DNA of 64,000 bases from assembly GCA_965221205.1 (NCBI GenBank), contig OZ244870.1, forward strand, positions 1,374,782 through 1,438,781, given 5' to 3'. The number at the start of each line of letters is the position of its first letter. The first letter of the stretch is position 1. This document shows, piece by piece, positions 1,717 through 40,213 of this stretch. A program made the position numbers and the translations under genes. The DNA comes from a bacterium (GTDB taxonomy: Bacteria; SM23-31). The notes below the pieces were generated by a model. The model was not told where the DNA came from, made no database searches, and saw only the letters and a program-made list of their open reading frames with translations.

Positions 1717-3401
1717 ATGGATTCTATACCGGTCAATCATACGAATACATCTCTTCTCGAAACTTCTCTCACTCTATTACAGAAAATCTGTACAGCATTG
1801 GCTGAATCCGATAAGGATAAATCACTTTCTGCTGATAAACTCTTCAATAAGGGTACTGACATACTGCTTACTTACTTGTTCGGTCAATGTCGGAACACAA
1901 TTAATCAGTTTGAAAAGCAATTTTTGTGTACACAAGATGGTTCAGTTAATGCAGTAGACAAAGCGATTCTCACCGATATGCTGGAATCAACATGCTACGA
2001 TAGCTTTAAACATTGATAATATTCCCGATTTATATGGGAAACTAATCAGGTATTCCGTGCAGTGTAGTAAAAGGGTTATTGTTCTGAAAATCGGACAAAT
2101 AGGGCGGAAAGAAGGAAATTTACTACACACCTGCTGAAATAACATCATTTATTGTTCATGAAATGATCGCACCGCTGGTTGACAATCGCAGAGTTCATGA
2201 ATTAAAGCGAATCCGTGTCTGTGATCCGGCAATGGGCACAGGAGCATTTTTACGACAGGCTGCATGGGAGCTCACAAATGCGTTTGTAGAACAATCCGAT
2301 AAAAAAAGCGGACAATTGTGGGATACATGGTATCGGTTTGTAGTCAAAAACTGTATCTACGGAATCGACAAAGATGAAACAGCTGTGAAAGTAACCCGTG
2401 TATACTTTGCTCACTCTGCAGGATTAGCACCAGATGAATTAAAACATTTTATTGCCGGGGATAGTCTACTTAGCGAACTGCCGGACAATTGGAAATTTGA
2501 TGCTGTATTTGGCAACCCTCCATGGGTGAGTTTCGGATTACGTGGAGTTAAACGAATTCCTCTTCGACTGAGCAGACAATACAGAAAACGTTTTCCCGAA
2601 ACGGTCGAATACAAGTTATCAATATATTCCCTTTTTATTGAACAAGCGTTGAAGATGACAGTAGAAGGAGGGTATCACGGATTTATTGTGCCCGACAGTT
2701 GGCTTATGGGGCGTTATTTTTCTAAACTCCGGTCATTTCTTATTGCAAATACAACGTTTCAGCACCTTTTTTTCGTTAAGAATGATTTCTGGACGGGCCC
2801 TCATGTCGGGAGATGTACTGTTTATGTAGTTAAAAAAGAAAAACCGGCTGGAAAAAGCGGATCTATTCTGGCAGACATTATTAATAATCCTGAAGATCTG
2901 CAATCTGGAAACAATCGGAAGATTCAACTTTCATTAACCAGAATTGGTTGCAGATCGCGCCACCGAATCGTTGTCTATCCCGATGAAAAAAGCCGAAAAA
3001 TCGCTGAGTGGATGGAGGATTGCGGCGATGTACTCGGCAATCATATTCGATTTTATAGCGGTCTTATTGGGAAAAATGGTAAGCAGAGTATAGTTATTAC
3101 CAATGGTTTTGAGAATCATAGCATGGAGAATTACGAGAAGCTTATAGAATCGGGAAAAAATCTGAGTCCAAATAGTGTTACATTTACCGGATGTCATATA
3201 TTACACCAGCCGGAAATATATAAGAGTTGTTATGACGTCGAAAAGTATGAAAATCAAAAACTGTTTGTTAATCAGAATAGCATATCCGGTTCACGAACAT
3301 ACCGATCTGCGATTCTATGCAGCGCCGCTGAACAGCAGAATTCTCAATTTCTACTACAAGATTATGTCAATGGAACATGGCAGAGCACTTCCCCAAACTG
3401 A
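1717..3401 (+). pseudogene. Eco57I/TaqI-like (gamma-class) N6-adenine DNA methyltransferase, disrupted (99-aa N-terminal ORF 1717..2016, stops, then MTase body 2103..3401)
   Basis: Motif X YYTPAEI (2121-2141) lies upstream of the first Met at 2163. Motif I is DPAMGTGAFL and motif IV is FGNPPW. The MTase frame is closed by TAG at 2100-2102 and the upstream 99-aa ORF is in another frame, so at least two frameshifts/stops separate the pieces. Confidence 0.5.
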
Positions 3402-3635: not shown

Positions 3636-6041
3636 CTATTTATCGGATTTTTTTGCTTTCAGCCCGCTCAAGAGTGATTTCGGCTGTTTGTGGAGAGCAA
3701 TTCCCAATACATCGTCAAGCTCTTTCACAAAATGAAAGGTCATTTTCCGTTTGATTTGTGCGGGGATTTCTATAAGATCATTCCTGTTTTTTTCCGGTAA
3801 AATAACCTGCATAATTCCCGCTCGGTTTGCCGCGAGAACTTTTTCCTTGATACCCCCAACGGGCAATACTAAACCGCGGAGGGTAATCTCACCGGTGAGT
3901 GCAATGTCGTTCCTCACTTTGGTACCCGTAATCAACGACACAAGAGCGGTAAGAATCGATATTCCGGCAGACGGTCCATCCTTAGGAATAGCCCCGGACG
4001 GAACATGGATATGGATATCGGTCTTGTCGAATGGGAAACCTGTTAATTTCCACTGGTGTGCTTGCGATTTAACATAACTGAGTGCAGCTTGTGCAGACTC
4101 TTTCATGACGTCTCCAAGCTTACCAGTGAGTGTTAAAATACCTTTACCCTGCATCTGAGTTGCCTCGATAAAAAGAATATCACCACCGGCAGGTGTCCAT
4201 GCAAGACCTGTTGCAACACCCGTTTTCATTGTTCGTTCAGCTACATCGTAGAAGAACCGATCGGGGCCGAGATATTGTTTAAGATTTCTCTTTGTGATCA
4301 CTGCTTTTTTGATCGATTTATCTACAATTTGCTTTGCGACCCCTCTGCACACCGATGCAATTTCTCTTTCGAGGTTTCTAACACCTGCTTCACGAGTGTA
4401 TGCGCTGACAATCTGACCAACAGCAGATGATTTTAGCTCTATCTGTTTTTCGGTTAGGCCGTGTTCTCGCATCTGTTTCGGAACAAGGAACTGCATTGCG
4501 ATTTGTTCTTTTTGCTCAGCCGTATAGCCCGGAAGATCAAGAACTTCCATTCTGTCCTTCAAAGCAGGTGGAATTGGGTCGGACAAATTTGCAGTCATTA
4601 TAAACATTACACGTGATAAATCACACGGGACATTCAAGTAATGGTCAATAAATGAATCGTTCTGCTCCGGGTCGAGCACTTCGAGAAGGGCACTTGCTGG
4701 ATCACCTCTGAAATCCTGGCCGACTTTATCAATTTCATCGAGCATAAATATAGGATTGATGGCACTTGCTTTTTTGAGTCCCTGAATAATCTTTCCGGGT
4801 AGCGCCCCGATATACGTCCTCCGGTGTCCGCGAATTTCTGCTTCGTCGTGAATTCCACCGAGCGATATTCTGACAAATTTCCGGCCGAGCGCACGTGCTA
4901 TCGATTTTCCGAGCGATGTTTTTCCAACACCCGGAGGTCCGATAAAGCAGAAAATCGGCCCCTTTTTACTTTTTCGCAGTTTTTGGACTGCGAGATATTC
5001 TATGATACGTTTTTTTATCTTATCGAGACCATGATGGTCTTCATTGAGAATTTTTTCGGCGTTACTGATATTTAACCTGTCTTTTGTATATGTTCCCCAA
5101 GGAATATCAGTGAGCCAGTCAAGATAGGTACGGGAAACAGTATATTCCGAAGATGAAGCAGGCATTTTTGACAGTCTGCTGATCTCTTTTAGAGCAACTT
5201 CTTTAACCTCCTCCGTCATTTTCGACGAATCAATTTTATCCGTCAATTCCTGAACTTCAACCGTGCGTTCATCACTTTCCCCGAGTTCTTTTTGAATTGC
5301 TTTCATTTGTTCATGGAGAAAATATTCTCTCTGGCTCTTATTGATTTCACCCATAATCTTCGATTGGATCTTATTTCCAAGCTCAAGAACATTTATTTCC
5401 TTAACGAGAAGCCGTGTAACTTTTTCAAGCCTGTGTTCAAGGTTGATCGTTTCGAGGATATCCTGCTTTTCCTGAGTAGAAATATTCAGACTCGATGAAA
5501 TGATGTCGGCAACTCTCCCCGGTTCTTCGGTATTCGCTATGATCAAACCCTGTTCAGGAGAGAGATATGGAGCAAGATCGACTGCCTTCTGAAACATACC
5601 TCTCAAATTTGAGATCATTGCGAGAACCGTATCGTTATCGGTTGAATTCTGCTCTTCAATCGTTTTAATAGATCCGGCAAAATAGGGATCGACTGATACA
5701 ATCCTGTTAATTTTCATTCGGTAAAGACCCTGAACAACGATATGCTGCGTCTGGTCGGGGAACTTTAAGACCTTCAGAATGAGTGCAGTAGTCCCAAATT
5801 TAAAAATTTCATTTTTCTGCGGTTCTTCAACCGTTCCATCAATTTGTGTTACAAGTCCGATAATTTTATCGTTATCGAGGGCATGTTCAACAAGCTTAAG
5901 CGATTTTTCACGCCCGACAGAGAGTGGTATAACCTGTCTCGGATAGACAACCGTACTCCGCAGCGGCATAATCGCTACCTTCTTAGGAAGTTCAGCTGGA
6001 TCGATATCGACCGTTTGTATAGGTTTGTCAAAAAATTCCAT
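3636..6041 (-). CDS. lon: ATP-dependent Lon protease
   Basis: 801 aa with an N-terminal LON substrate domain, Walker A GPPGVGKTS, and a C-terminal proteolytic domain containing the PKDGPSAG catalytic-Ser motif. Confidence 0.95.
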   Translation of the reverse strand: MEFFDKPIQTVDIDPAELPKKVAIMPLRSTVVYPRQVIPLSVGREKSLKLVEHALDNDKIIGLVTQIDGTVEEPQKNEIFKFGTTALILKVLKFPDQTQHIVVQGLYRMKINRIVSVDPYFAGSIKTIEEQNSTDNDTVLAMISNLRGMFQKAVDLAPYLSPEQGLIIANTEEPGRVADIISSSLNISTQEKQDILETINLEHRLEKVTRLLVKEINVLELGNKIQSKIMGEINKSQREYFLHEQMKAIQKELGESDERTVEVQELTDKIDSSKMTEEVKEVALKEISRLSKMPASSSEYTVSRTYLDWLTDIPWGTYTKDRLNISNAEKILNEDHHGLDKIKKRIIEYLAVQKLRKSKKGPIFCFIGPPGVGKTSLGKSIARALGRKFVRISLGGIHDEAEIRGHRRTYIGALPGKIIQGLKKASAINPIFMLDEIDKVGQDFRGDPASALLEVLDPEQNDSFIDHYLNVPCDLSRVMFIMTANLSDPIPPALKDRMEVLDLPGYTAEQKEQIAMQFLVPKQMREHGLTEKQIELKSSAVGQIVSAYTREAGVRNLEREIASVCRGVAKQIVDKSIKKAVITKRNLKQYLGPDRFFYDVAERTMKTGVATGLAWTPAGGDILFIEATQMQGKGILTLTGKLGDVMKESAQAALSYVKSQAHQWKLTGFPFDKTDIHIHVPSGAIPKDGPSAGISILTALVSLITGTKVRNDIALTGEITLRGLVLPVGGIKEKVLAANRAGIMQVILPEKNRNDLIEIPAQIKRKMTFHFVKELDDVLGIALHKQPKSLLSGLKAKKSDK

Positions 6042-6346
6042 GAGATATATCCAAACTATTTGAGCAAGTCTACTAAGGTTTCAATGGATTACAGTATCGT
6101 TCACTAAGAGAAAATGTACCAAAATTAACTTGAAAATTCAACAGAAACTTTGAATAAAGAACACTAGTATTTCACAAAACAAGTGCCCGATTTATGTCCG
6201 AATTCTGTACAAGTCAATAATGCAGAAACAGTTGTGAGTAGAGTTCTCCTATAATGAAAATGTCTTGCGTTCGTTCTATAATTTAAGTATATTACATACT
6301 CAATCTTCCATACTTTCCTTATCACTGTAACGTTAAAATAATTCCT

Positions 6347-28680: not shown

Positions 28681-29463
28681 TTTTAAAGCGACCCGATAGG
28701 GCACTTTAAAATTGTGAATAAAGTTGATAGATACCGAGATCGGAATTTCTATAAATATAGGATGTTCCGGAGTGAAATATTCTCAATTTATGTAAAGACC
28801 TTCAGGAATTTATATGTCGTCTGTGTCTTCATCTTCTCCATTGTGGACATAGAGGTTGTATTGAACCAAAAACAGAGAGACGTTTTAACTATTTACACAG
28901 TAAATAGTGTTTACGCTCAGCACAATGGGAATAAATGGTTTATGGCGATTGTCATGGTTGTCAATTCCAAGAAAAGCCTGTCCAGTTGCCAGCTTGGCTG
29001 CAACCTGGGCATTACGCAACAAAAAGAAAAATCCATAGCTTGAGAAAACCCCCGTGTAGTAATTTAGTATCCAGTGTCAGACAAGATGCTCTCAAAGACA
29101 GCTCTCAAATCCGCGTTAAAGAATCTCCCTGAAATATAAAATAATTGTTGGTTGTTGTATAGAAATTTTATATTTTCGTTGGGGGACCCTCCCAAAGCCT
29201 GGTGAATAGTTAGGAACTTTTACGCCACGCCTTCGGTCGAATCAGCAAACGATACTGTTGTGATGACCGGCGGATCGTTGACCTTTCGCGCTGGGGTGGA
29301 TGAGGCGGCGAAGATCGCCCGTGAGCTGCGGGAGGTCTCATCAAAAACCGCTCAACACTGCGGAATCGTGATCGTGCAAAAGCGATAGCACCCCGGAGCT
29401 TCAAAGGCCAAGTGCGGTGACACCTGAATATATCGAAGCGCTCTCGGAGCTTTAGGGACAAAC

Positions 29464-32150
29464 ATGACGGGGACAATGATTTCAGATTACTTAATGAAGA
29501 AGGCGCAAGAGCTTCCCAGCGGCGCGCACTTCTACCGCTGCGCCTTGCAGGTAAACCCTTTCGCCTATTTGATCCGGTACAAAAAGCAAACGTCGTTCCA
29601 AAGTGAGGCGGAGTATAACGCGGCGATCATTGACGCGTGCCAGGAGGCGGAAATCAAGGTTATCGGTGTTACGGATCACTACCGGTTCGATGAATCGAAG
29701 GGCCTCTGGTCAAGGCGGCCCGCGATGCCGGGCTGTTCGCCTTCAGCGGCTTCGAGGCCGTCACCAAGGACGGCGTGCATTTTCTGTGCCTGTTCGATCC
29801 CGACAAGGACGATATACTCGAACGGTTCATTGGCGACTGCGAAGTTTATGATACGAAAGCGGCCTCGCCGACGGGAAGGTTCGATTCTACTGAACTGCTC
29901 GTCCAGGTGAAAAAGTGGGGTTCGGTCTGCGTGGCAGCACATGTCGCGGCCGAGGGAGGGCTTTTGAAAAAGCTCAATGGGCAGCCTCGCGCCAATGCGT
30001 GGAAGTCACCGGACCTACTAGCCTGCGCCCTTACCGGTCCGATTGCGGATGCGCCGGAAAACATCCGGCCTATTCTTGAGAACAAGGACGCGGCACACAG
30101 GCGCAACCGTCCTGTGGCCGTGATAAACGCCTCGAATGTGAACAGCCCCGAGGACCTGAAAAAGGAAGGAGCATTCTGTTTCGTCAAGATGTCGAGCATC
30201 TCCGTCGAAGGCTTGCGGCAGGCCTTCCTTGACCCTGAATCGCGGATCCATCTCAAGAGCGATCCGCAACCGGAACCGCACGCGGAGTTTCTGGCGGTGA
30301 CGTGGGAAGGTGGGTTCCTCAGCGATACATCCGTTCACTTCAACGGCAATCTGAATGTCCTGGTCGGCGGGAGAGGAACAGGTAAATCGACAATGATCGA
30401 GAGCATGCGCTATGCGCTTGGGCTGGATCCGCTCGGAGAAGAGGCTCGCAAGGCCCATGAAGGTGTTATCCGGCATGTGCTTCGCTCCGGAACCAAAGCC
30501 TCCTTGCTGGTGCGATCGCATAAGCCTTCCGAGCGGTACTATACTATCGAGCGATCGGTCCCGAATCCGCCGATCGTGAAGGACGAAACCGGGGCAGTTC
30601 TGACGCTCTCGCCGAAGGACGTGATGCCGGGTGCGGAGGTCTTCGGACAACACGAGATATCGGAACTCACCAAAAGCCGGGAAAAGCTGACACTGCTGCT
30701 GGAGCGGTTTGTTGACAGCGATCCAACACTGTCGGGGCGAAAGTTGAAGCTCAAGCTCGAGCTCGAACACTCGCGAAGCCGTATCATGGAGGTGCTCCGC
30801 GAGATGAAAGCTCTCGACGAGCGACTTGCGGCCCTTCCGGCTCTGGAAGAGACACAAAAGCGTTTCCAGGAAGCCGGGCTTGAAGAACGTCTGAAAGAGA
30901 GGAGCCTCGTCATTCGGGAAGAGCGCGTATTCGTGAGTGTCGGCGAACGACTTGATCCTGTCCGCACGCTCCACAGGGAATTGGTCGAGATGCTTCCCTT
31001 TGATGCCGCCTTCGTCTCCCCAAAGGCTTTGGAGGGACTCCCGAATGCGGCTATCTTGGAGAGGGTCGGATCGATTCTGTGGATGCTGAGCTCGAAGCTC
31101 AAGGCGATCCGCCGATCAGCTCGCCAAAGCGTTAGCGGAAGCGGACAGCGCTGTTGCCGGAACGAAAGCCCGATGGGAGAAGAAACGGGAAGTCATCGAA
31201 GACACCTATGAGAAGCTCCTGCGGGAGCTTCAGAAATCGAAGATCGACGGAGCCGAGTTCATCCGTCTGCGAAAGCAGCTTGAAGAGCTTCGACCGTTGC
31301 GGGAAAAGAAAGAGGACCTGAAGCGTTACTTAGCCAGTCACGAGAAGCACCGCCGCAAGCTGCTTGTCGAATGGGAGGACACCAAGGCAAGCGAGCATCG
31401 TGAGTTTCGAAGTGCGGCGAAGAAAGTTTCTCGCAAGCTCGGGGATCGGGTTCAGGTGGAAGTTACCATGGCGGGAAATCGTGATGCCGCTCGAGCGGCT
31501 CTTACGCAAGGTCGGGGGAAACCTGAGCGCCGCTCTGGAGCGGCTGCGTTCGCTGGACCAACTTTCGCTGCCGGACTTGGCGCAGTGCTGCCGTGAAGGG
31601 AAAGAGGCGCTGATGAAGAAATACTTCTTGCCGACAGGTTCGGCCGAGCGAATTACGCAAGCAGGCCCGGCCCTGTTCATGAGAATTGAGGAGTTGGACC
31701 TTCCGGCCGGCGACGACAAAGATCGAATTGAACACAGCACCGGACGGCGAGCCGTCCTCGTGGCAGACGTTGGAAACGCTATCGACCGGCCAGAAGGCAA
31801 CGGCTGTGTTGCTCCTTCTGCTGTTGGAGTCTGAAGCCCCGCTTGTTGTCGATCAGCCGGAAGACGACCTCGACAATCGGTTCATTACCGAGGGCGTGGT
31901 GCCGATTATGCGGCAGGAGAAACGCCGTCGGCAATTCGTCTTTTCGACCCACAACGCGAACATTCCAGTCCTCGGCGATGCGGAGTTGATCTTGGGCCTG
32001 GCGTCGGGAGAGGTTGGGGAAGGACATGCCAGAATAGCTACCAAGCATATGGGTTCAATTGACTCCAGACCGGTCCGCGAGCTGGTGGAAGAGATCCTCG
32101 AAGGGGGCAAGGATGCCTTCGAGATGCGGCGTTCCAAGTACGGGTTCTGA
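29464..32150 (+). pseudogene. PHP phosphoesterase + SMC/RecF-like ABC ATPase fusion (ppl-like defence gene), broken into at least 5 frames
   Basis: PHP motifs VIGVTDHYRFDE and GVHFLCLFD, Walker A VLVGGRGTGKSTM, coiled-coil middle, ABC signature LSTGQKATAVLLLLL, and Walker B/D-loop LVVDQPEDDLD. The pieces are ORFs 29464-29910, 29775-31211, 31297-31596, 31364-31834 and 31686-32150. Confidence 0.55.
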
Positions 32151-32153
32151 ATT

Positions 32154-33357
32154 ATGCCAATGCTCACCGAACTACTGGAGACCATTAGCAACGGAGAAAA
32201 CTCCGGGGTCGAGTTTAAGCGAGACACACTGCAAAACTACGATCTTGCAAAAGAGCTGGTCGCCTTCTCGAACCTTGGGGGCGGGATGGTGCTTCTTGGC
32301 GTGGAGGATGACGGAAGCATATCGGGCATCACCAGAGATAACCTCGAAGAATGGGTAATAACCACATGCCGGGACAAGATCAGACCGGCCATCATCCCCT
32401 TCTTTGAGATTGTTCGCAACGTCGAGCCGGGAAAGAACGTGGCAATTGTCCGTGTGACACGCGGCTACGACGTTCACAGCCTCTGGCACAGCAACAGCAG
32501 AAAGTATCACATCAGGGTAGGAACGCAGAGCAGGGAAGCGACTCCGGAAGAGCTGGGGCGGCTTTTCCAGCAACGGGGAACGGTCCGCGCTGAATTGCTG
32601 CCGGTCTCAGGATCGACTGTTGACGACTTGGACCGGCGACGACTTCGGGATTATTTTGTCCGTATTCGTCAACAGGACGTGCCCACTGACGCGGATGAAG
32701 CGGCCTGGATATCCCTTCTTGTAAACACGGAGATCATGACGGAGGATGGTGTCACCGTTAGCGGGATGCTCTTGTTTGGCACGACACCAAACCGTTTTCT
32801 TCCCCAGGCCGGCATTGACGCTGCAGCTTTCCCCGGAACGGGAAAAGACTATGCGGCGCGCGAACGCATGGCGCTCCGTGGCCCGATGACCACCTTGATC
32901 TCCGCAAATGGCGCTATCGTGGAAAACGGCCTGGTTGAACAGGCACTAGGGTTTGTGCTCCGGAATACCCCGGTGACGGCTGTCCTCGAAAACGGGAGAA
33001 GAGTCGAAAAGCCTGCCTATCCTCAAGAGGTGATCCGAGAGGCAGTTGTCAACGCGCTCATCCATCGCGACTACCTTCTCTCCAGCACGGATATCGAACT
33101 GGCCGTGTACAGCAATCGGCTGGAAATCGTTTCACCTGGACGGCTTTCAAACGGTATTACACGCCGGAACGGATGCGCGCAGGGACACGATCTGCCCGAA
33201 ATCAGCTCCTGAAGGATGTCATGCGGGACTACGGTTATCTGGAGCACATGGGGTGGGAATTCCGCTAAAGATCATCGCAGGGATGCAGAAGCACAACAAT
33301 ACAACGCCTGAACTGATTGAAGACCAGGAACGCTTCATCCTGCGCGTGCGGACATGA
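32154..33357 (+). pseudogene. AlbA_2 (Schlafen-like) DNA-binding + HATPase_c_4 protein, C-terminus frameshifted
   Basis: N-terminal ENSGVEFKRD...LAKELVAFSNLGGGMVLLGVEDDGSISGI is an AlbA_2 signature. C-terminal REAVVNALIHRDY...IEIVSPGRL is HATPase_c_4. The tail GYLEHMGWGIPLKIIAGM continues in a different frame (33181-33357). Confidence 0.55.
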
Positions 33358-33503
33358 CGGAGGTTCGTCAGATGGAGGATGCATTCCACCTCATCGAGGA
33401 AGATCTCATCTTGTGGTTGGCGATGTGCTGGGCGATCTCGAGATCACCGATTCGCTGCTGTCCCGACGCAGGTTGGACACGTGACTCCGCAACCGGATTA
33501 AGG

Positions 33504-35022
33504 AGCTAACACAATGAATAGAAAGTTTAAGAGATATGCAGAAAAGACCTACCCCCCCCCTCGAAAAATTAAATCTTCATTCAAGAACGATTTTCTGCCG
33601 CGATAATTTGCCGGTTCTGCGGGGCATTAACAGCAATTCCATAGACCTGATTTACTTAGACCCTCCGTGACCCTCCGTTTAATAAAGGACGTAATTTCCA
33701 TTTGCTCCTATTGGCACAACCGCAGAAGGGGCTGATTTCAGGGATATATGGTCGCCAGACGAAGTTAAGGACGAGTGGCATAATCAGATAAATGATCGCT
33801 TTCCCGAGTTATACAAATACCTCAATGCCGTTGGAGATATCGGAAGCAGGTCAGCAAAATATTATCTGATTTATATGGGGGTAAGGCTTATCGAGATGAA
33901 ACGAGTGTTGAAGGATACCGGAAGTCTGTATCTACATTGCGACCCGACCGTTTCGCATTATCTAAAATTGTTGTTGGATACAATTTTCGGACATGCGCAG
34001 TTCAGGTCCGAAATTTCATGGAAACGCACTTTTTCGCACAATGACAGTCGAACGTTTGGAAATGTTCGGGATGTAATTCTGTTTTACGGAAATTCGGACA
34101 TAAACACCGGTTCCGTTCGGGTTCCTTTGAATAACGAGTATGTCCAAAAATTCTATCGTTACGAAGATTCCGTAGGACGCTATGCGGCTATCGATTTAAC
34201 AGGGCAGGGACGTCGGTAGGGGAAAGTGGCAACCCGTGGAGAGGCATTAATCCTGGTGATGTGGGAAGGCAGTGGTCCGTTCCGTTGACAGGCAATTACG
34301 CCACGTGGATCGAGGAAAACATTATACCGGGATACAGATCTATCGGGAGGCCACAGGAACGACTGGACGCACTTGATAACGTTGGGATGATTCACCAATC
34401 CAGAACGGGACGGAGAGTACCGAGCCTCAAACGTTACCTCAAAGCCGCACAGGGTCAGGTTCCTTCTAACTCATGGGACGATATAAACGCTGTGCAGTCT
34501 CATTCCAAAGAACGCACCGGTTATCCTACGCAAAAACCACTTGCCCTGTTAGCGCGGATAATAAAAGCCAGTTCAAACCCGGGCGACATAGTGCTAGATC
34601 CGTTTTGTGGTTGTGCAACAACCTGTATTGCTGCTGAAAAACTTGAAAGGCAGTGGATTGGAATTGACGTTTCAAAAAAAGCATACGACTTGGTGATAGA
34701 GCGGCTTAAGAAGGAAGTTCCTCCAGACTTGTTCAGGGGAAAGCCTATTTTCAGAACGGATAGACCGACAAGAAACGATGTGCTCTATAAGAAAGTTCCG
34801 ACAAAGGAAGACAGGTTTTATCTATACGGAAAACAAAACGGCACGTGTTGCGGCTGCAATACCCAGTTTGAAATACAGCATCTTGAAATAGATCATATAG
34901 TTCCCCGTTCACAAGGTGGAGGTAGTGAGCGTGAAAACCTTCAACTACTCTGTGGTCATTGTAATCGTACAAAAGGCGACCGCCCAATGGAATATCTAAT
35001 GGCACGACTTAAAGTCGCTTAA
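33504..35022 (+). pseudogene. beta-class N4/N6 DNA methyltransferase (PF01555-like) fused to a C-terminal HNH endonuclease, with at least 4 disruptions
   Basis: RBS AAGGAG, then MNRKFKRYAEKTYPP and a C9 tract (33551-33559); one fewer C gives IFCRDNLPVLRGINSNSIDLIYLDPP. A 10-bp tandem duplication gaccctccgt (33659-33678) introduces a stop after DPP. Further along: KDTGSLYLHCD, TGYPTQKPLALLARII, FCGCATTCIAA, and HNH CCGCN...EIDHIVPRSQGG...LLCGHCNRTKGD. Confidence 0.6.
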
Positions 35023-35040
35023 ATCCTTTCATTAAAATAA

Positions 35041-35661
35041 GGACAAATCCATACCGACACGTTTAAGGAACAACTCAAATCTGTCATCAGTGAGTATGAA
35101 TCAGCTGCATCAGACACAATCTCCAACATGCAAATTATTGAAAGAATTGCTGGCCGAAATTCTGTTTATTTTAAACAGGTCATGAGAATTGATAAGGACA
35201 AGGAGTTCTCTAAGAAATTTAACATGATATCAATGAGTTCGGAAGAGGCTTACATATATAACACAATTTATATGATGGTGCACTATCTCGCCACATCGAT
35301 TTCGTTCGAAAACAGGGGGCTTGCAGCGCCCGGCAGTATCGATTCTGTTCCGGTGTCTGCAGATAAAGAGGATTATAACTCAAATGGCATGTGGAGCGCA
35401 CGTAAAGCTTGGAAAATTATCGAAAACGCTGAGCGGATTATTGCAGTTGAACTGTTATGCGCCGCTCAGGCTGTCGATTTCCACAGCGAGTACAAGCCGG
35501 GAAAAGGAACACAAGCGGCGTATAATGTGATTCGGTCAAAAGTGAAAATGCTGAAACAAGACCGAATAATCGGTAAAAATATTCAATCTGTCATCGGTCT
35601 AATCCGGACTGGCAATCTGGTAGAGGCTGTAGAAAAGTCTGTTGGAAAATTGTCGCTTTAG
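35041..35661 (+). pseudogene. hutH: histidine ammonia-lyase, C-terminal ~205 aa fragment only
   Basis: NAERIIAVELLCAAQAVDF is a HAL/PAL C-terminal motif. The frame opens right after a stop at 35038-35040. The N-terminal ~300 aa, including the MIO-forming ASG motif, are absent. Confidence 0.55.
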
Positions 35662-36684: not shown

Positions 36685-37020
36685 TTAAGTAAAAAATGAC
36701 TATAATCCAGGTTGTATGTTATTTCATTTTTGTGTATCTTTGAGATGTGAAAGCGGTAATGCCGGGGTGGTGAAATTGGTAGACGCGCTGGACTCAAAAT
36801 CCAGTAGGCTTCGGTCCGTGAGGGTTCGAGTTCCTCCCTCGGCACTGTAGTAAAAACAAGGACTTACAAGGATTGTTTATGAGTCCTATAAATGTCTGAA
36901 GATTTTACTCCCACCGCTATTCCCACCATAAAGCACATGTTTTGAGTGGCTTCATTAAATTAATTTGGTCTATTTATAGGATGATTTTGATGTGACCATT
37001 GCCCGACGTACCATTTCATT
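36648..37020 (+). repeat. direct repeat copy 1 (MBL 3' end + tRNA-Leu + ~180 bp downstream)
   Basis: About 85-90% identical to 39851-40213 by eye. Shared strings: cgcatatttgacgaggatgcatccgg, tgtgtatctttgagatgtgaaagcggtaatgccggggtggtgaaattggtagacgcgctggactcaaaatccagt, cgacgtaccatttcat. Confidence 0.8.
36761..36844 (+). tRNA. tRNA-Leu (anticodon CAA), copy 1; weak variable arm, possibly degenerate
   Basis: Acceptor stem GCCGGGG/CCTCGGC, D-arm TGGTGAAATTGGTAGAC, anticodon loop CTCAAAA, long variable arm, T-loop TTCGAGT. Confidence 0.7.
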
Positions 37021-37623
37021 CCCAGAACCATATTTCACATTTATAATCCCTCGCTAAAATATCCGAAAAATTTATGAAATATATAGATTTTGCTTATGTG
37101 TAAAGTAAACTTTCCACCTGGAGAGTTCTCACTTTATTAAAATCTCGCCTCAAACCTAATTCCTATCCCATTCGAAGAATATCGTCCTTGCAGGTAATTA
37201 AAGTTTGAATTGTTGTCTATGTATTAGGCAGGTGGAGAGTTATCTGGAAAGGTAATTTACGGAAAGATGTGAGTAAAAATCGCTTATAGAAATTAAGAGA
37301 TGCATTTTGCTTTATAAGTATTTTCTGCTCCCCGGGTGGGACGATGTTAGAACTTTTTTCAAGGATAAAAAGGAAGATATCCAAATCCCAGCTTTTGATC
37401 TTCCAGCCTCAGCATAACGGCTTGCGCATAACCGGCCCAAAGTATGCGGGCCTACTCCCTCAAAGCTAACTGAAAAGGACCTGCGGAGCAATGTCTATCC
37501 TGCCTGAACGGTGCACTTTGGGTTCGGCGTTGATTCACTGGTTATGCGGCGAACGTTAGGTTACTCCCCGCGGTAAGAGGCGAGCGAGGCGTATCGATCA
37601 TAGTGGCTAAATATCAACACGGC

Positions 37624-39297
37624 CTAATTTTTGGAGGGGATCGGCTGGTCGCCCCAGTGGCGTTGTGCATCCAAGATGATCTGTTCGTATCTGGTGCGCG
37701 CTACTTCGTAGTTCGCCAGTACCTCCTGTTGAGCGGCGGTGGATGGAAAGCGATCCGGTTGAGAACGGGCGATATCGGCCAGTATTTGAGTCCAGCGTAG
37801 CATGTAGGTTGCATCTTGGGCAAACGCTGTCGGCTTTTCATCTACCGATAGATAAACCGGGCTGGTGTGTGCTTGGCGGAGTAAGCCGTCCGGGGCCCGA
37901 TAGAGCGCGCGGGCGGCAATCCAGCCGCTTCTTTTCGGATACAGTTCGTAGGTTAGCGTCTGTCGTAAGATCGGTGCAGGTTTTTGATCGAGCAGGCTCA
38001 GCGAGGCAACGACGCGACCGTTGTGAACGAGTTGGAGCGATTCCAACGCTTCAATCGAACGCAGGGTTGCAATGAATTGAATGGGGCTGGTGTCCGATGA
38101 CGTTCTGGAGATCATTGTTCCCGGGCCCTGGCTGTCAGCATCCAGGGTCAGCATGGGCCCCGTGGTGACGAAGGAACGTCCGGCCTTGATCGAGTCCCAC
38201 ATTTTCTCTGCCGTCAACGGTCCGTTAATTCTGGCATAGACGCGGTTATGGCCGGTCGGTACCGGCATCACGCCGATGGCCGAGCCGCCGGAGACGCCTA
38301 GGCGAAAGCCGCAATTCAAGAAGCGGTAATACAGATTGTTCGTGCGATGGAACAAACCGTCGCCGACAGCAGCATTGGACTCACCCGCCGACAGCGGTCC
38401 GATCATGCCCCAGCCACCCACCAAGGTTGACCTGCGATGGTAGTGGTTGTGGCAGACTTGAATGGTGTTGAGCACCCCCAGCGCCGCACCGATGACGGTC
38501 TCTGCCCATGATGGTTTGTCGCTGTCGAATACAACGCCCGGTGACTGGGTTCGCGCGGTTCGGCAAAGCGCGGCGTCAGTGGGAAAATGCTCCCCGAATT
38601 GCTTGGTGGTGATGGGGCTGTCCAGGTTGAACAGAAATGTCGCGCCGATAGTCCAGCCGGGTGCGGCGTTGCGATCGATGCGTTCGATTTCGATGTTGTT
38701 TCGCGTGATGAGGTGGCGGTCGTCGATGACGATCGGCGCTGTGTAGGTTTCATCCGGCCACGTTGCGTGCCACGATTCCTCCCGTCCTCGCAGCCAGTAG
38801 GTGAATGCCGGCACGAGATGCACGTCGTCGGCCAGCGCCAGTTGTTGAAGGATGTGAGGATTGTTCTGTCCCAGATGCACGTGCAGATCGGCTGAATACC
38901 AGCCTTCGGACGGCAAATCGATCCAGCGCTTCAGCTGAATGGTATTCTCGATCGTTTCGCCGGCTTTCAGGGTGAATGCAAGGTCTACCGGAGTGTATTC
39001 TTTCCCTTTTTCAACATGCACCACCGCATTTCCGGCCGGCACCTCCATTGTGAAAACGCCATCGCAGCTAAAGCTTTGATCTTCGGCGTAGACCGTCGCC
39101 GTCTGCGGCGCTATTGGTTGGAAAAAACGCTGGCTGTCAACATCGATCCATGCGCGAGCCGGGGTTGTATTACCGCTTTCGTCGACAATCCGGATTGAGA
39201 TGCGGGCCAGTATCTTGAACGGATCGGATTGACCGCATGTAACAAGGATAGAGCAGCAAAATAAAATCGCAAATAGTAATGAGGACAATTTATTCAC
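37624..39297 (-). CDS. CehA/McbA-like PHP-domain metallophosphoesterase, lipoprotein, GC-rich
   Basis: Signal peptide plus lipobox LVTCGQS, a carboxypeptidase-regulatory-like N-terminal domain, and a DLHVHLGQ PHP motif. GC content is far above background. Confidence 0.5.
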   Translation of the reverse strand: MNKLSSLLFAILFCCSILVTCGQSDPFKILARISIRIVDESGNTTPARAWIDVDSQRFFQPIAPQTATVYAEDQSFSCDGVFTMEVPAGNAVVHVEKGKEYTPVDLAFTLKAGETIENTIQLKRWIDLPSEGWYSADLHVHLGQNNPHILQQLALADDVHLVPAFTYWLRGREESWHATWPDETYTAPIVIDDRHLITRNNIEIERIDRNAAPGWTIGATFLFNLDSPITTKQFGEHFPTDAALCRTARTQSPGVVFDSDKPSWAETVIGAALGVLNTIQVCHNHYHRRSTLVGGWGMIGPLSAGESNAAVGDGLFHRTNNLYYRFLNCGFRLGVSGGSAIGVMPVPTGHNRVYARINGPLTAEKMWDSIKAGRSFVTTGPMLTLDADSQGPGTMISRTSSDTSPIQFIATLRSIEALESLQLVHNGRVVASLSLLDQKPAPILRQTLTYELYPKRSGWIAARALYRAPDGLLRQAHTSPVYLSVDEKPTAFAQDATYMLRWTQILADIARSQPDRFPSTAAQQEVLANYEVARTRYEQIILDAQRHWGDQPIPSKN

Positions 39298-39850
39298 TAA
39301 AATTTCCTCCTTTAAGTGTATGATAGAAATTATCAGAAAAATTTATTGCTTGAACATTGGCTAACGTGACTCAATATGTTGTAAATTAAAAAACAGACCT
39401 GAACTTTGACAACATTTTGATATTGATAATTTTGTGCCACGAAATCCCATGATACTTCTTTTATGGACAGGCAACTGTGTTGTGCCTGTTATTGCATCGA
39501 GTATCAGGAAGTACTTGGATCATTAGATATCATTAGAATTATAAAGATTAATCTAAAATACTGACCATATCAAACCACAAACAACCAATTGCTCATCAAA
39601 TTATGTCTTAGTGACTTTAGTTGGAGAAATGAGGCTGAAGATAGATTAATTTATGAGAATATAAGAGATAAATTTTGAAAACACAACCCTTCAAAAATAA
39701 TTTATGCACCATCACTAACGGGTAGTTGGGAAACCATACTACCTTACGCGGCAATAGCCACACCATCAGTTTATAAAGTCGATAGCCGGCAATTCGTTGT
39801 GGTTGTCGCAGGCGGCGGCAAAGGCCTATACTCAGCACCTCAACCTTCCG

Positions 39851-40213
39851 GCGCATATTTGACGAGGATGCATCCGGCAAAAATTAATCAAGTAAAAAAT
39901 GACTATAATCCGGGTTGCATGTTATTTCATTTTTGTGTATCTTTGAGATGTGAAAGCGGTAATGCCGGGGTGGTGAAATTGGTAGACGCGCTGGACTCAA
40001 AATCCAGTGGGAGCAATCCCGTGAGGGTTCGAGTCCCTCCTCCGGCACTATAATAAAAAAGGACCTATAATGTTGAATTGTAAGTCCTTGTTTGTGTCCA
40101 ATATTTTATTCCCACCATAAAGTACATATTTTAAGTAGTTTCATTGAATCCTATTGATCAATCTTAATTTGTATGACACTGGTGTGAGTATTTCACGACG
40201 TACCATTTCATCC
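39851..40213 (+). repeat. direct repeat copy 2
   Basis: See copy 1. Confidence 0.8.
39964..40047 (+). tRNA. tRNA-Leu (anticodon CAA), copy 2; canonical variable arm and T-stem
   Basis: Same acceptor stem, D-arm and anticodon arm as copy 1. The variable arm gggagcaatccc pairs cleanly. T-stem GAGGG/CCCTC. Confidence 0.8.

What the first reader, a model, noticed from the sequence alone, without database searches (positions are those of the whole stretch)
29464..32150. PHP-phosphoesterase + SMC/RecF-like ABC ATPase single-gene architecture (ppl-like), fragmented
Read across five overlapping ORFs, the order is:
- PHP motifs (VIGVTDHYRFDE, HFLCLFD);
- Walker A GGRGTGKST;
- a long coiled-coil segment;
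- ABC signature LSTGQK;
- Walker B/D-loop VVDQPEDDLD.
That is a PHP nuclease/phosphatase fused to an SbcC/OLD-like ATPase head. As I recall it, this domain pair matches the single-gene anti-phage system reported as ppl (polymerase/histidinol-phosphatase-like) by Gao et al. 2020. Here it is GC-rich and interrupted at least four times, so it is probably non-functional. If repaired, it would be a two-domain nuclease-ATPase.
Basis: partly seen in the sequence, partly recalled or inferred. Interest (0 to 1): 0.6.

Follow-up and report, generated by a model that had tools for sequence, protein, structure and literature searches.

The report
Decayed PHP-ATPase plus Schlafen defence cassette
The five overlapping reading frames are one 892-codon gene for a PHP-nuclease-like domain fused to a Rad50/SMC-like ATPase, a relative (not a member) of the anti-phage protein Ppl, broken by four small insertions, and it is half of a widespread two-gene cassette (with a Schlafen-type partner) that this bacterium acquired by horizontal transfer and is now losing.

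Summary
Window 29464-32150 (+) is a single gene interrupted by four insertions (+2, +1, +1, +4 nt). Deleting 8 nt restores a clean 892-aa frame with PHP-like motifs, Walker A, a long coiled coil, the ABC signature and Walker B/D-loop.

- The protein passes NCBIfam's "TrlF family AAA-like ATPase" cut-off (495 vs 350 bits) and fails the Ppl equivalog (160 vs 1000 bits). It is a sister family of Ppl.
- It is not a single-gene system. In 75 of 79 assessable loci from named genomes, a ~400-aa Schlafen(AlbA_2)+GHKL-ATPase gene ("Schlatpase") starts 3-15 nt downstream. That partner is present here (32154-33357) and has two frameshifts of its own.
- The PHP fold is real (AF2 pLDDT 93.9; Foldseek hits EndoQ, RNase AM and Pol III PHP domains), but this whole clade lacks the canonical HxH.

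The frameshifts are real mutations. Three of the four are shared with independent metagenome contigs, and housekeeping genes are intact. Assemblies with 99.1%-identical flanks carry intact alleles (896, 400 and 375 aa), and a sister species has the empty site. The host is a ~40% GC candidate division KSB1 bacterium; the island is ~54% GC. This is a dead copy of a likely, so far untested, two-gene defence cassette.

The parts
29181..35022 (+). Horizontally acquired GC-rich island (53.8% GC; left flank 40.9%, right flank 35.7%). It holds three pseudogenes: the TrlF-like gene, the Schlatpase partner and an MTase-HNH gene.
   Evidence: Composition. Contigs L001/L002 start exactly at 29181. Sister species L089 lacks window 28837-35267 and has ArsP_1 plus a full-length hutH there instead. 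L090/L091 have the same island with intact genes.
29464..32150 (+). TrlF-family PHP-ABC ATPase pseudogene (892 codons after repair), in five ORF pieces.
   Evidence: NCBIfam NF045780 495 bits (cut-off 350), residues 20-891 against model positions 2-944. The intact same-locus allele in L091 is 896 aa with the same MTGTMISDYLMKKAQELP start.
29707..29708 (+). Frameshift 1: +2 nt (TG; placement ambiguous within 29703-29708). Frame 1 to 0. Shared with L001/L002.
31109..31110 (+). Frameshift 2: +1 nt (C in atcCgcc). Frame 0 to 1. Private to the window; absent from L001/L002 and L090/L091.
31485..31486 (+). Frameshift 3: +1 nt. Frame 1 to 2. Shared with L001/L002.
31703..31706 (+). Frameshift 4: +4 nt, tandem duplication of CCGG. 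Frame 2 to 0. Shared with L001/L002.
29464..30290 (+). PHP-fold domain (repaired residues 1 to about 275). Motif I is CALQVNP (29539-29559) instead of DxHxH. TDH lies within 29659-29694, GFE..GVH at 29748-29798 and AAH at 29931-29945. The last motif is NASNVN (30126-30143), with N224 where the family has D.
   Evidence: Profile vs PDB: 3e0f E = 7.7e-5. AF2 pLDDT 93.9. Foldseek: EndoQ, 3e0f, RNase AM, Pol III alpha PHP. Motif conservation.
30291..32150 (+). SMC/Rad50-like ABC ATPase. Walker A GGRGTGKST 30366-30392; Q-loop FGQHE 30642-30656; coiled coil with a conserved apex LPxDxAFxSxxALxxLP 30993-31043; signature LSTGQK 31779-31796; Walker B/D-loop VVDQPEDDLD 31845-31874; H-loop STHNAN 31944-31961.
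   Evidence: Pfam AAA_23, SMC_N, AAA_21. Invariant columns. Coordinates.
32154..33357 (+). Partner pseudogene: Schlafen AlbA_2 + GHKL-type ATPase (HATPase_c_4) + C-terminal tail ('Schlatpase'), about 400 aa when intact. Two frameshifts: +2 (AC) at 33159-60, private to the window, and -1 near 33250-33254, shared with L001.
   Evidence: Pfam. tblastn in three frames. Indels. Intact 400 aa in L090/L091. Conserved 3-15 nt downstream in 75 of 79 loci. Family-conserved residues retained.
33536..35022 (+). N6/N4 DNA methyltransferase-HNH fusion pseudogene (three or more pieces; -11, +10 and -1 nt relative to the intact 375-aa allele). It is a neighbour in this island, not a conserved part of the cassette.
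   Evidence: Methylases flank only 4 of 125 neighbour ORFs elsewhere.
35128..35661 (+). Truncated host hutH (only about residues 377-502 of histidine ammonia-lyase). It marks the right-hand junction and the deletion that came with island insertion.
   Evidence: Full-length 511-aa gene at the empty site in L089.

Best explanation
Window 29464-32150 is a pseudogene of a TrlF-family protein: an N-terminal PHP-fold domain fused to a Rad50/SMC-like ABC ATPase with a long coiled coil. The family is a sister of the anti-phage protein Ppl.

It is the first gene of a tightly coupled two-gene cassette. The second gene (32154-33357) encodes a 'Schlatpase', a Schlafen/AlbA_2 nuclease-type domain plus a GHKL ATPase and a C-terminal tail.

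The cassette and an adjacent methyltransferase-HNH gene arrived as a ~54% GC island in a ~40% GC candidate division KSB1 genome. Insertion replaced ArsP_1 and the 5' two-thirds of hutH. In the window's lineage all three island genes have been inactivated stepwise by small indels (4 + 2 + at least 3), while assemblies whose host flanks are 99.1% identical keep a diverged but intact allele.

Likely function when intact (inferred, not shown): an anti-phage or anti-mobile-DNA system.
- The ABC/coiled-coil ATPase senses foreign DNA, such as ends or abnormal structures, and possibly the nucleotide state, as reported for Ppl.
- Attack then comes from the PHP-like domain acting on DNA, from the partner's Schlafen domain acting on RNA (tRNA), or from both. 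The GHKL ATPase would control the partner's oligomerisation.
- Such systems carry a fitness cost, which would explain repeated loss.

Shown: gene structure, family assignment, fold, partner linkage, horizontal acquisition, reality of the frameshifts, and the intact/broken polymorphism. Inferred: defence function, the roles of the two proteins, and the cause of decay.
For: - One gene, four insertions, clean 892-aa repair.
- TrlF equivalog passed, Ppl not. Homology to Ppl.
- PHP fold.
- Partner linked in 75 of 79 loci across many phyla, with otherwise unrelated neighbours: 140 Pfam families among 125 flanking ORFs, led by methylases, integrases and transposases.
- On an IncC plasmid the pair sits between hsdS and hsdR of a type I R-M operon.
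- The partner is the SLFN+GHKL class whose Schlafen domain is a tRNA-cleaving defence effector in other architectures (PMC13056530; bioRxiv 10.64898/2026.05.29.728809). It keeps E15, F21-K22, D24 and the GHKL N-box.
- Ppl is reported as a single-gene, NTP-inhibited 3'-5' ssDNA exonuclease that senses 3'-OH ends (PMC12904381; Xu et al. Mol Cell 2026, as cited in PMC13434339).
- Frameshifts are real: 3 of 4 in this gene and 1 of 2 in the partner are shared with the independent contigs L001/L002, which differ by SNPs and lack the other two. None is in a long homopolymer. Lon, DnaJ, Gnd and AspAT are full length.
- Five derived G>A changes at conserved residues, including D224N and G126E, each invariant in 77 of 77 homologues.
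- Intact alleles and the empty site.
- Host is KSB1. GC contrast.
Against: - No experiment exists for any member of this TrlF clade or for this gene pair. The defence role rests on homology and context.
- The PHP domain lacks HxH and the terminal His, so it may not be a nuclease at all.
- The context signal in chromosomes is diffuse: only a few methylases, integrases and transposases among 125 neighbours. NCBI attaches a 'double-strand break repair' GO term.
- The broken allele is not a recent derivative of the intact one (dS 0.21 against 0.01-0.02 for host genes), so the history involves allele replacement that I cannot polarise.
- I had no reads, so read support for the window's private indels (31109/31110 and 33159-60) is untested.
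Confidence: 0.8

Rival explanations
1. The frameshifts are sequencing or assembly errors in a GC-rich patch of an AT-rich genome, and the gene is really intact and functional in this organism.
For: Assemblies with a 100%-identical flanking gene (L090, L091) carry uninterrupted genes of 896, 400 and 375 aa at the same locus. One of the four indels (31109/31110) and the AC at 33159-60 are seen only in the window. The exact 352-aa partner fragment is not on record elsewhere.
Against: - Three of the four indels, and one of the two in the partner, are identical in L001/L002 from a JGI metagenome. Those contigs differ from the window by SNPs, so they are not the same sequence.
- The indels are not homopolymer slips; one is a 4-nt tandem duplication.
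- Lon, DnaJ, Gnd and AspAT are full length, and 11 kb of host flank shows no frame-disrupting difference inside a gene.
- L090/L091 carry a different allele (87% aa identity), so they say nothing about this allele's integrity.
- The broken lineage also carries derived substitutions at invariant residues.
Confidence: 0.06
2. It is a genuine, if divergent, member of the single-gene Ppl system. The downstream gene is an unrelated neighbour.
For: Ppl is the top PADLOC hit (E = 3e-37). The domain order is the same. Some TrlF-family genes on plasmids stand alone with no partner (L087, L088).
Against: - NCBIfam Ppl equivalog: 160 bits against a cut-off of 1000. TrlF: 495 against 350.
- The Ppl model aligns only over two stretches (about 149-308 and 772-889 of 894) and not over the N-terminal PHP motifs.
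- The partner begins 3-15 nt after the stop in 75 of 79 loci from many phyla with otherwise unrelated neighbours.
Confidence: 0.07
3. When intact, the TrlF-Schlatpase pair is not an immune system. It is a DNA-repair or DNA-processing module, or a plasmid/mobile-element maintenance module (SbcCD/Rad50-like), and its decay here is ordinary loss of dispensable acquired DNA.
For: - RefSeq attaches 'double-strand break repair' to TrlF.
- There are weak Rad50 matches.
- TrlF homologues occur on 1131 plasmids, 815 of them conjugative, which could reflect a plasmid-biology role.
- Chromosomal neighbours are mostly unrelated to defence.
Against: - The closest characterised relative is a validated anti-phage protein (Ppl).
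- The partner belongs to a class whose Schlafen domain is a validated defence effector (PMC13056530).
- The pair is embedded in a type I R-M operon and lies next to an MTase-HNH gene here.
- Patchy distribution, horizontal transfer, presence/absence and intact/broken polymorphism among close relatives are typical of defence genes, not of core repair functions.
Confidence: 0.12

Closest known systems
Ppl (Gao et al. 2020 single-gene anti-phage system; NCBIfam NF042955, PADLOC PDLC02208)
   Same: Same domain order: N-terminal PHP, then an ABC/SMC-like ATPase split by a coiled coil. Detectable homology (E = 3e-37 to 5e-47), strongest over the C-terminal ATPase lobe. Similar length, about 880-895 aa.
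   Different: Far below the Ppl equivalog cut-off (160 vs 1000 bits). The N-terminal PHP motifs do not align to the Ppl model. The canonical HxH is absent. It has a conserved downstream partner, whereas Ppl is described as acting alone. Ppl's reported biochemistry (NTP-inhibited 3'-5' ssDNA exonuclease sensing 3'-OH ends; PMC12904381) is untested for this clade.
TrlF family AAA-like ATPase (NCBIfam NF045780), as annotated on many plasmids
   Same: Passes the curated cut-off end to end (495-545 bits against 350). Plasmid members at about 34% identity share the CALQVNP motif, and one (IncC pCFR-0b27) has the same Schlatpase partner, 41% identical.
   Different: The window's clade is chromosomal, from high-GC environmental phyla, and only 28-35% identical to plasmid TrlFs. 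Some TrlFs (E. coli IncF, L087) keep a canonical DFHLHT motif and have no partner. I found no literature on the family. The 'TrlF' of the tropolone pathway is an unrelated PaaY-like thioesterase.
Prokaryotic Schlafen defence proteins: pSlfn-HisKinase(-HTH) class (PMC13056530) and the 'Schlatpase' supradomain of SLFN-pAgo (bioRxiv 10.64898/2026.05.29.728809)
   Same: The partner has PF04326 + PF13749 and hits the SLFN+GHKL part of PADLOC's pAgo model. It keeps an N-terminal acidic motif (E15, D24) and the GHKL N-box. Stand-alone Schlatpases are reported next to type I R-M genes, as in L086.
   Different: Those papers describe single-protein systems or fusions (pAgo, NACHT, HsdS). They do not mention a PHP or ABC ATPase partner: word searches of both papers' main text for PHP, and of PMC13056530 for ATPase, SMC and operon, found nothing. 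tRNase activity of this partner is untested.
SMC/Rad50-like ATPase plus nuclease defence systems (Lamassu LmuB, Gabija GajA, Septu PtuA, PARIS AriA, MADS mad3)
   Same: The ABC head shows weak matches to all of these. The general logic of an ABC/coiled-coil ATPase sensor coupled to a nuclease effector is shared.
   Different: Only the P-loop and signature regions match (E = 1e-5 to 1e-12). Accessory proteins and effector domains differ, so it is a member of none of these families.
PHP-fold nucleases: Endonuclease Q, RNase AM (YciV), PHP domains of PolX, PolC and DnaE
   Same: The predicted fold of residues 1-275 superposes on these (Foldseek probability 1.00, TMq up to 0.59). The TDH, GxE..H and AAH motifs align.
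   Different: Sequence identity is 13-17%. The first-strand HxH and the final His are replaced (N31-P32..Y35; D224 followed by a variable residue). This recalls PHP domains that have lost catalysis, such as E. coli Pol III alpha (my recollection, not tested).

Membership tests
Ppl (anti-phage protein, NCBIfam NF042955 equivalog) | Whole-protein score at or above the curated equivalog cut-off (1000 bits) | tested here: not met
   160.3 bits for the repaired protein. 158.7 and 158.6 bits for the intact alleles L091 and L004.
Ppl | PHP domain followed by an ABC/SMC-like ATPase in one polypeptide | tested here: met
   PHP fold. Walker A, signature and Walker B in one repaired ORF.
Ppl | Acts as a single-gene system | tested here: not met
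   A conserved partner gene lies 3-15 nt downstream in 75 of 79 loci. This tests genomic linkage only, not functional dependence.
Ppl | NTP-inhibited 3'-5' ssDNA exonuclease activity of the PHP domain; sensing of 3'-OH overhangs (PMC12904381; Xu et al. 2026, cited in PMC13434339) | not testable with these tools
   This is biochemistry. The sequence hints at a difference: HxH is absent.
TrlF family AAA-like ATPase (NCBIfam NF045780 equivalog) | Whole-protein score at or above the cut-off (350 bits), with end-to-end alignment | tested here: met
   495 bits, residues 20-891 against model positions 2-944 of 944. 509.7 (L091) and 476.5 (L004).
PHP superfamily (Pfam PF02811; Aravind and Koonin motifs) | PHP (distorted TIM-barrel) fold | tested here: met
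   AF2 model pLDDT 93.9, pTM 0.89. The top 29 Foldseek PDB hits are all PHP proteins. Profile vs PDB: 3e0f E = 7.7e-5. Pfam PF02811 itself did not hit the repaired protein, but is on record for some homologues.
PHP superfamily | Full set of metal ligands: HxH (motif I), H (II), E and H (III), H (IV), DxH (V) | tested here: not met
   Motif I is C-A-L-Q-V-N-P (61 of 61 database homologues match C..[QH][VIL]NP; N31 and P32 invariant). In the last motif D224 is kept but the His position varies. D71-H72, E97, H105 and H159 are kept. The window copy additionally has D224N. Residue equivalences come from sequence alignment only; I had no model coordinates.
ABC ATPase of the SMC/Rad50/RecF type | Walker A, Q-loop, ABC signature, Walker B/D-loop and H-loop, with a coiled-coil insertion between the N and C lobes | tested here: met
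   GGRGTGKST, FGQHE, LSTGQK, VVDQPEDDLD and STHNAN at the coordinates. About 370 residues separate the Q-loop from the signature. Pfam AAA_21 and AAA_23 are above or at cut-off and SMC_N below (30.6 vs 40). The coiled coil itself is inferred from the sequence pattern and was not modelled.
Schlatpase / pSlfn-HisKinase(-HTH) (partner gene) | PF04326 SLFN_AlbA_2 followed by a PF13749 GHKL-type ATPase | tested here: met
   Window fragment: PF04326 E = 1.8e-18; PF13749 21 bits, below its cut-off of 26 because the gene is truncated. Both families are on record for the intact orthologues. Conserved E15, K22, D24 and N300..H304-R305-D306-Y307.
Schlatpase / pSlfn | Mn-dependent tRNA cleavage; ATP-driven oligomerisation | not testable with these tools
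   Reported for RorSlfn5 (PMC13056530) and RzAgo (bioRxiv 10.64898/2026.05.29.728809), not for this protein.

The most novel reading that the evidence does not exclude
The TrlF-clade PHP-ABC ATPase and the stand-alone Schlatpase form a previously undescribed two-component defence system. A Rad50-like DNA sensor, whose PHP domain has lost the canonical HxH metal site and may have become a regulatory or binding module, licenses a Schlafen tRNase effector. That would link DNA-end sensing to translation shut-off. The KSB1 population, with intact, partly broken and more broken alleles plus an empty site, would be a natural series recording the system's gain, allele replacement and loss.
Probability: 0.3. 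Interest if true: 0.7.

Novelty: new variant of a known kind. Interest (0 to 1): 0.45.

Why it matters
The locus in this window is a dead gene and matters little for the organism. Working out what it was turned up three things of wider use:

1. "Ppl-like" hits from defence-finder HMMs can in fact be TrlF-family proteins, which fail the Ppl equivalog. Annotation pipelines should keep the two apart.
2. A large TrlF clade (at least 514 loci in species-representative genomes, across many phyla) is almost always coupled to a Schlafen+GHKL "Schlatpase" gene. The two recent Schlafen papers I read describe that domain class as the commonest prokaryotic Schlafen architecture but assign the stand-alone proteins no partner. 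The pairing offers a concrete, testable candidate sensor-effector pair.
3. The clade's PHP domain has systematically replaced the HxH metal site. That raises the question of whether it is still a nuclease.

The polymorphism among close relatives (empty site, intact allele, three-hit and four-hit pseudogenes) is also a clean example of the turnover of defence genes.

Tried and rejected
- **Literature on 'TrlF'.** The only TrlF found is a PaaY-like thioesterase of tropolone biosynthesis, unrelated to this protein. The origin of the NCBIfam name could not be traced.
- **Sequence search against PDB chains.** The single repaired protein found only a marginal SMC head hit and no Ppl structure. A profile of the N-terminal domain was needed to reach PHP structures.
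- **Idea that the family is disrupted unusually often.** This was prompted by L003 (IS insertion), L005 (frameshift) and several out-of-frame tails among database proteins. It is not supported: 77 of the 80 best genome loci are intact. That list is ranked by score and so favours intact copies.
- **Idea that the window's copy is an outlier in substitutions at conserved sites.** It has 5 deviations against a median of 2.5, but ranks only about 14th of 78, so the count alone is not significant. What is notable is which residues are hit, and that the intact L091 allele keeps the consensus at all five.
- **Flanking repeats or att sites around the island:** none found. No integrase lies inside the island.
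- **Looking up the exact 352-aa partner fragment** to count assemblies with the window's allele: not on record.
- **The primary Ppl mechanism paper** (Mol Cell 2026) is not held. Its content is cited second-hand.
- **A third conserved gene in the cassette:** none. Flanking ORFs fall into 140 Pfam families.
Full report
**1. What is in the sequence**

Between 29464 and 32150 on the + strand there are five overlapping ORFs. Three-frame translation and tblastn with full-length homologues show that they are collinear pieces of one protein, read in the frame order 1>0>1>2>0.

The four junctions are small insertions:
- TG at 29707-8 (placement ambiguous within 29703-8)
- one C at 31109/31110
- one base at 31485-6
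- a tandem duplication of CCGG at 31703-6

None lies in a long homopolymer. Deleting these 8 nt gives an 892-codon ORF with no internal stop.

The gene is 57.5% GC and lies in a 53.8% GC block (29181-35022). The flanks are 41% and 36% GC.

**2. Which family it belongs to**

The PADLOC Ppl model is the best defence-model hit (E = 3e-37), but it aligns over only two stretches: model positions about 149-308 and 772-889 of 894. NCBIfam separates three related equivalogs:

| Model | Score (bits) | Cut-off (bits) |
|---|---|---|
| TrlF family AAA-like ATPase (end to end, residues 20-891 vs model 2-944) | 495 | 350 |
| Spaf_1101 family | 173 | 475 |
| Anti-phage protein Ppl | 160 | 1000 |

Two naturally intact relatives give the same pattern, so my repair did not create it. 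The protein is therefore a TrlF-family member and a sister of Ppl, with the same architecture.

I found no literature on this TrlF. The tropolone-pathway "TrlF" is an unrelated thioesterase. RefSeq uses the TrlF name for homologues on 1131 plasmids, mostly conjugative, which are 28-35% identical to this protein.

**3. The N-terminal domain**

Pfam's PHP model does not hit the repaired protein. Three other lines of evidence show the fold is PHP:
- A profile of the first ~280 residues from 41 homologues finds PHP structures: 3e0f at E = 7.7e-5, the PolC PHP domain at 0.006 and 9etk at 0.014. The TDH, GxE...H and AAH motifs are aligned.
- An AlphaFold2 model of repaired residues 1-275, built with 61 database homologues, is very confident (pLDDT 93.9, pTM 0.89).
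- Its top 29 Foldseek matches in the PDB are all PHP-fold proteins: Endonuclease Q (TMq 0.58-0.59), BAD_1165, RNase AM, and Pol III alpha and PolC PHP domains.

The metal site, however, is not canonical. Where PHP domains have DxHxH on the first strand, every member of this clade has C-A-L-Q-V-N-P. All 61 database homologues that contain the N-terminus match C..[QH][VIL]NP, and N31, P32 and Y35 are invariant in the 41-sequence alignment. In the last motif the Asp (D224) is kept but the His position is variable. D71-H72, E97, H105 and H159 are retained.

Plasmid TrlFs at 34% identity share CALQVNP, while a more distant E. coli IncF TrlF has a canonical DFHLHT. The loss of HxH is therefore a derived feature of a large subclade. 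Whether the domain is still a phosphoesterase cannot be decided here.

**4. It is half of a two-gene cassette**

In three unrelated metagenomic contexts the gene is followed, 3-4 nt after its stop, by a ~400-aa gene with SLFN_AlbA_2 and HATPase_c_4 domains.

A scan of species-representative genomes found at least 514 relatives, in Acidobacteriota, Alpha- and Gammaproteobacteria, Nitrospirota, Latescibacterota, Planctomycetota and others. Among the 80 best loci:
- 77 have an intact single-frame gene. One has an IS insertion, one a frameshift, and one runs off its contig.
- 75 of the 79 assessable loci have partner homology starting 3-15 nt downstream. A few of those partners are cut off by a contig end or internally disrupted.

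The other neighbours are unrelated to one another. There are 140 Pfam families among 125 flanking ORFs, and the most frequent are DNA methylases (4), phage integrases (3), and transposases, reverse transcriptases and ResIII. The two genes are therefore the unit.

On an IncC plasmid the pair (partner 41% identical, E = 2e-94) sits between hsdS and hsdR of a type I R-M operon. Two other plasmid TrlFs stand alone.

The partner belongs to the class called pSlfn-HisKinase(-HTH), reported as the commonest prokaryotic Schlafen architecture (PMC13056530). A 2026 preprint calls the same domain pair "Schlatpase" (10.64898/2026.05.29.728809). That explains its PADLOC hit to the SLFN+GHKL part of a pAgo model. 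[quoted passage not shown]

Across 69 orthologues the partner keeps E15, F21-K22, D24 and the GHKL N-box N300...H304-R305-D306-Y307. Word searches of both papers' main text found no mention of a PHP domain, and none of ATPase, SMC or operon in PMC13056530.

**5. The state of the cassette in the window, and whether the breaks are real**

The partner (32154-33357) is itself in three frames. It has a +2 insertion (AC) at 33159-60 and a -1 deletion near 33250-33254. The next gene, a methyltransferase-HNH fusion (33536-35022), is also in pieces.

Several observations show that these are mutations and not errors:
- Two contigs from a JGI metagenome (L001/L002) are 99% identical to window 29181-33407 but differ by SNPs. 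They share three of the four frameshifts in the first gene and one of the two in the partner, and lack the other two. This is a nested pattern of stepwise decay.
- Lon, DnaJ, Gnd and aspartate aminotransferase in the window are full length.
- The repaired protein carries five derived G>A substitutions at positions that are at least 97% conserved in 77 homologues: R22H, E65K, G126E, D224N and R262H. All are in the PHP domain, and two hit residues invariant in 77 of 77. The intact allele at the same locus has the consensus residue at all five. The count itself (5, against a median of 2.5) is not an outlier.

**6. Origin and population context**

Lon places the host in candidate division KSB1.

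A sister species (L089, flanks about 92-94% identical) has an empty site. It reads M23 peptidase, rpsU, a 70-aa ORF, ArsP_1, a full-length 511-aa hutH, then lactamase_B. In the window only the last ~125 codons of hutH remain (35128-35661). The island therefore replaced about 2.3 kb of host DNA.

Two other assemblies (L090, L091) have a 100%-identical M23 peptidase gene and flanks 99.1% identical to the window. They carry the same island with all three genes intact: 896, 400 and 375 aa.

The intact and broken alleles are not close. The proteins are 87% identical, with dS = 0.21 and dN/dS = 0.30, whereas flanking host genes have dS = 0.008-0.019. The excess divergence (5-12%) is confined to the two-gene cassette. 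It is about 4% over the methyltransferase and 0.2-2.4% elsewhere, including the island's 5' leader. The simplest reading is cassette-level allele replacement by recombination with a diverged source, followed by inactivation in the window's lineage. The direction cannot be determined.

The closest genome-resident relatives (82-83% identity) are in Acidobacteriota and other high-GC taxa, which fits a high-GC donor.

**7. How it most likely works when intact**

This section is inference. The ABC/coiled-coil ATPase resembles the DNA-sensing ATPases of Ppl, Lamassu, Gabija, Septu and PARIS. Ppl is reported to be an NTP-inhibited PHP 3'-5' ssDNA exonuclease activated by 3'-OH ends and nucleotide depletion (PMC12904381; Xu et al. 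2026, cited in PMC13434339). Prokaryotic Schlafen domains are tRNases used as abortive-infection effectors.

I therefore propose that the TrlF-like protein senses foreign DNA and possibly nucleotide status. It would then act itself through the PHP-like domain, or activate or cooperate with the Schlatpase, whose GHKL ATPase controls assembly of an active Schlafen nuclease. Because the PHP site has lost HxH, the division of labour may have shifted toward the partner.

The evidence for a defence role is contextual:
- homology to two validated defence families
- embedding in a type I R-M operon
- adjacency to an MTase-HNH gene
- horizontal transfer and patchy distribution
- presence/absence and intact/broken polymorphism among close relatives

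The main rival is a repair or plasmid-maintenance role.

**8. Verdict**

In this window the feature is a pseudogene remnant of an acquired island, which is ordinary in itself. It is wrong about family (TrlF, not Ppl) and about "single-gene". The non-canonical PHP site and the near-obligate coupling to a Schlatpase gene are the points that go beyond what the sources I could search describe. They make the intact alleles, such as L091, worthwhile experimental targets.

Noticed in passing
window 36761-36845 and 39964-40048 (insert 36846-39963): Two tRNA-Leu(CAA) genes, each with about 120 nt of upstream sequence (87% identical over 276 nt), bracket a 3.1-kb insert. The insert holds a 56.5% GC CehA/McbA-family metallohydrolase gene (37624-39297, minus strand). 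It looks like a second, separate foreign insertion at a tRNA gene, with duplication of the target.
   Followed up: partly
window 35128-35661: Only the C-terminal ~125 residues of histidine ammonia-lyase (HutH) are encoded. The sister species L089 has a full 511-aa hutH plus an ArsP_1 gene at the corresponding empty site, so island insertion came with a ~2.3-kb deletion.
   Followed up: yes
window 33536-35022: An N6/N4 DNA methyltransferase fused to a C-terminal HNH nuclease domain (IscB/Cas9-type HNH) is broken into at least three pieces (-11, +10 and -1 nt relative to the intact allele). It is intact (375 aa) in L090/L091. A methylase with a built-in HNH is an unusual fusion, and I did not investigate it further.
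   Followed up: partly
window 29500-33000 compared with L091:12447-16343: Divergence between the broken and intact alleles is 5-12% across the two-gene cassette but only 0.2-2.4% in the host flanks and the island leader (gene dS 0.21 against 0.01-0.02). This suggests the cassette alone was swapped by recombination with a diverged source.
   Followed up: partly
L003/L027 (N-terminus at about 5985-6098 and 7881 onward), L005:7789-8016, L039:8514-8648; proteins P0002, P0011, P0064, P0065, P0106: Independent disruptions of the same gene in other lineages: an IS (DDE_Tnp_1_4) insertion, frameshifts at different positions, and out-of-frame C-terminal tails. Even so, 77 of the 80 best genome loci are intact.
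   Followed up: partly
L036, L048, L079, L080 (downstream of the TrlF-like gene): Four loci, including the isolate Azospirillum endophyticum (L048), lack the Schlatpase partner and have other large ORFs immediately downstream (for example L080:8733-11534 and L048:8798-10681). These may be alternative partners.
   Followed up: no
L087:5974-8592 (E. coli IncF plasmid TrlF): This TrlF has a canonical DFHLHT PHP motif. Its N-terminus matches PADLOC candidate PDC-M49A (E = 2.9e-17), which links TrlF-type PHP-ATPases to a multi-gene candidate defence system.
   Followed up: no
window 2163-3401: A 412-aa ORF with a weak match (51 bits) to the BREX PglX methyltransferase lies next to a normal housekeeping lon gene (3636-6041).
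   Followed up: no
protein ids P0003, P0006, P0038, P0050 compared with L004:7827-10502: Gene callers in public collections often start this gene about 60 codons too late, just before the TDH motif, even though the upstream frame is open. This removes the CALQVNP strand from the deposited proteins. None of the 120 database hits is complete at both ends except one that is only 764 aa long.
   Followed up: partly
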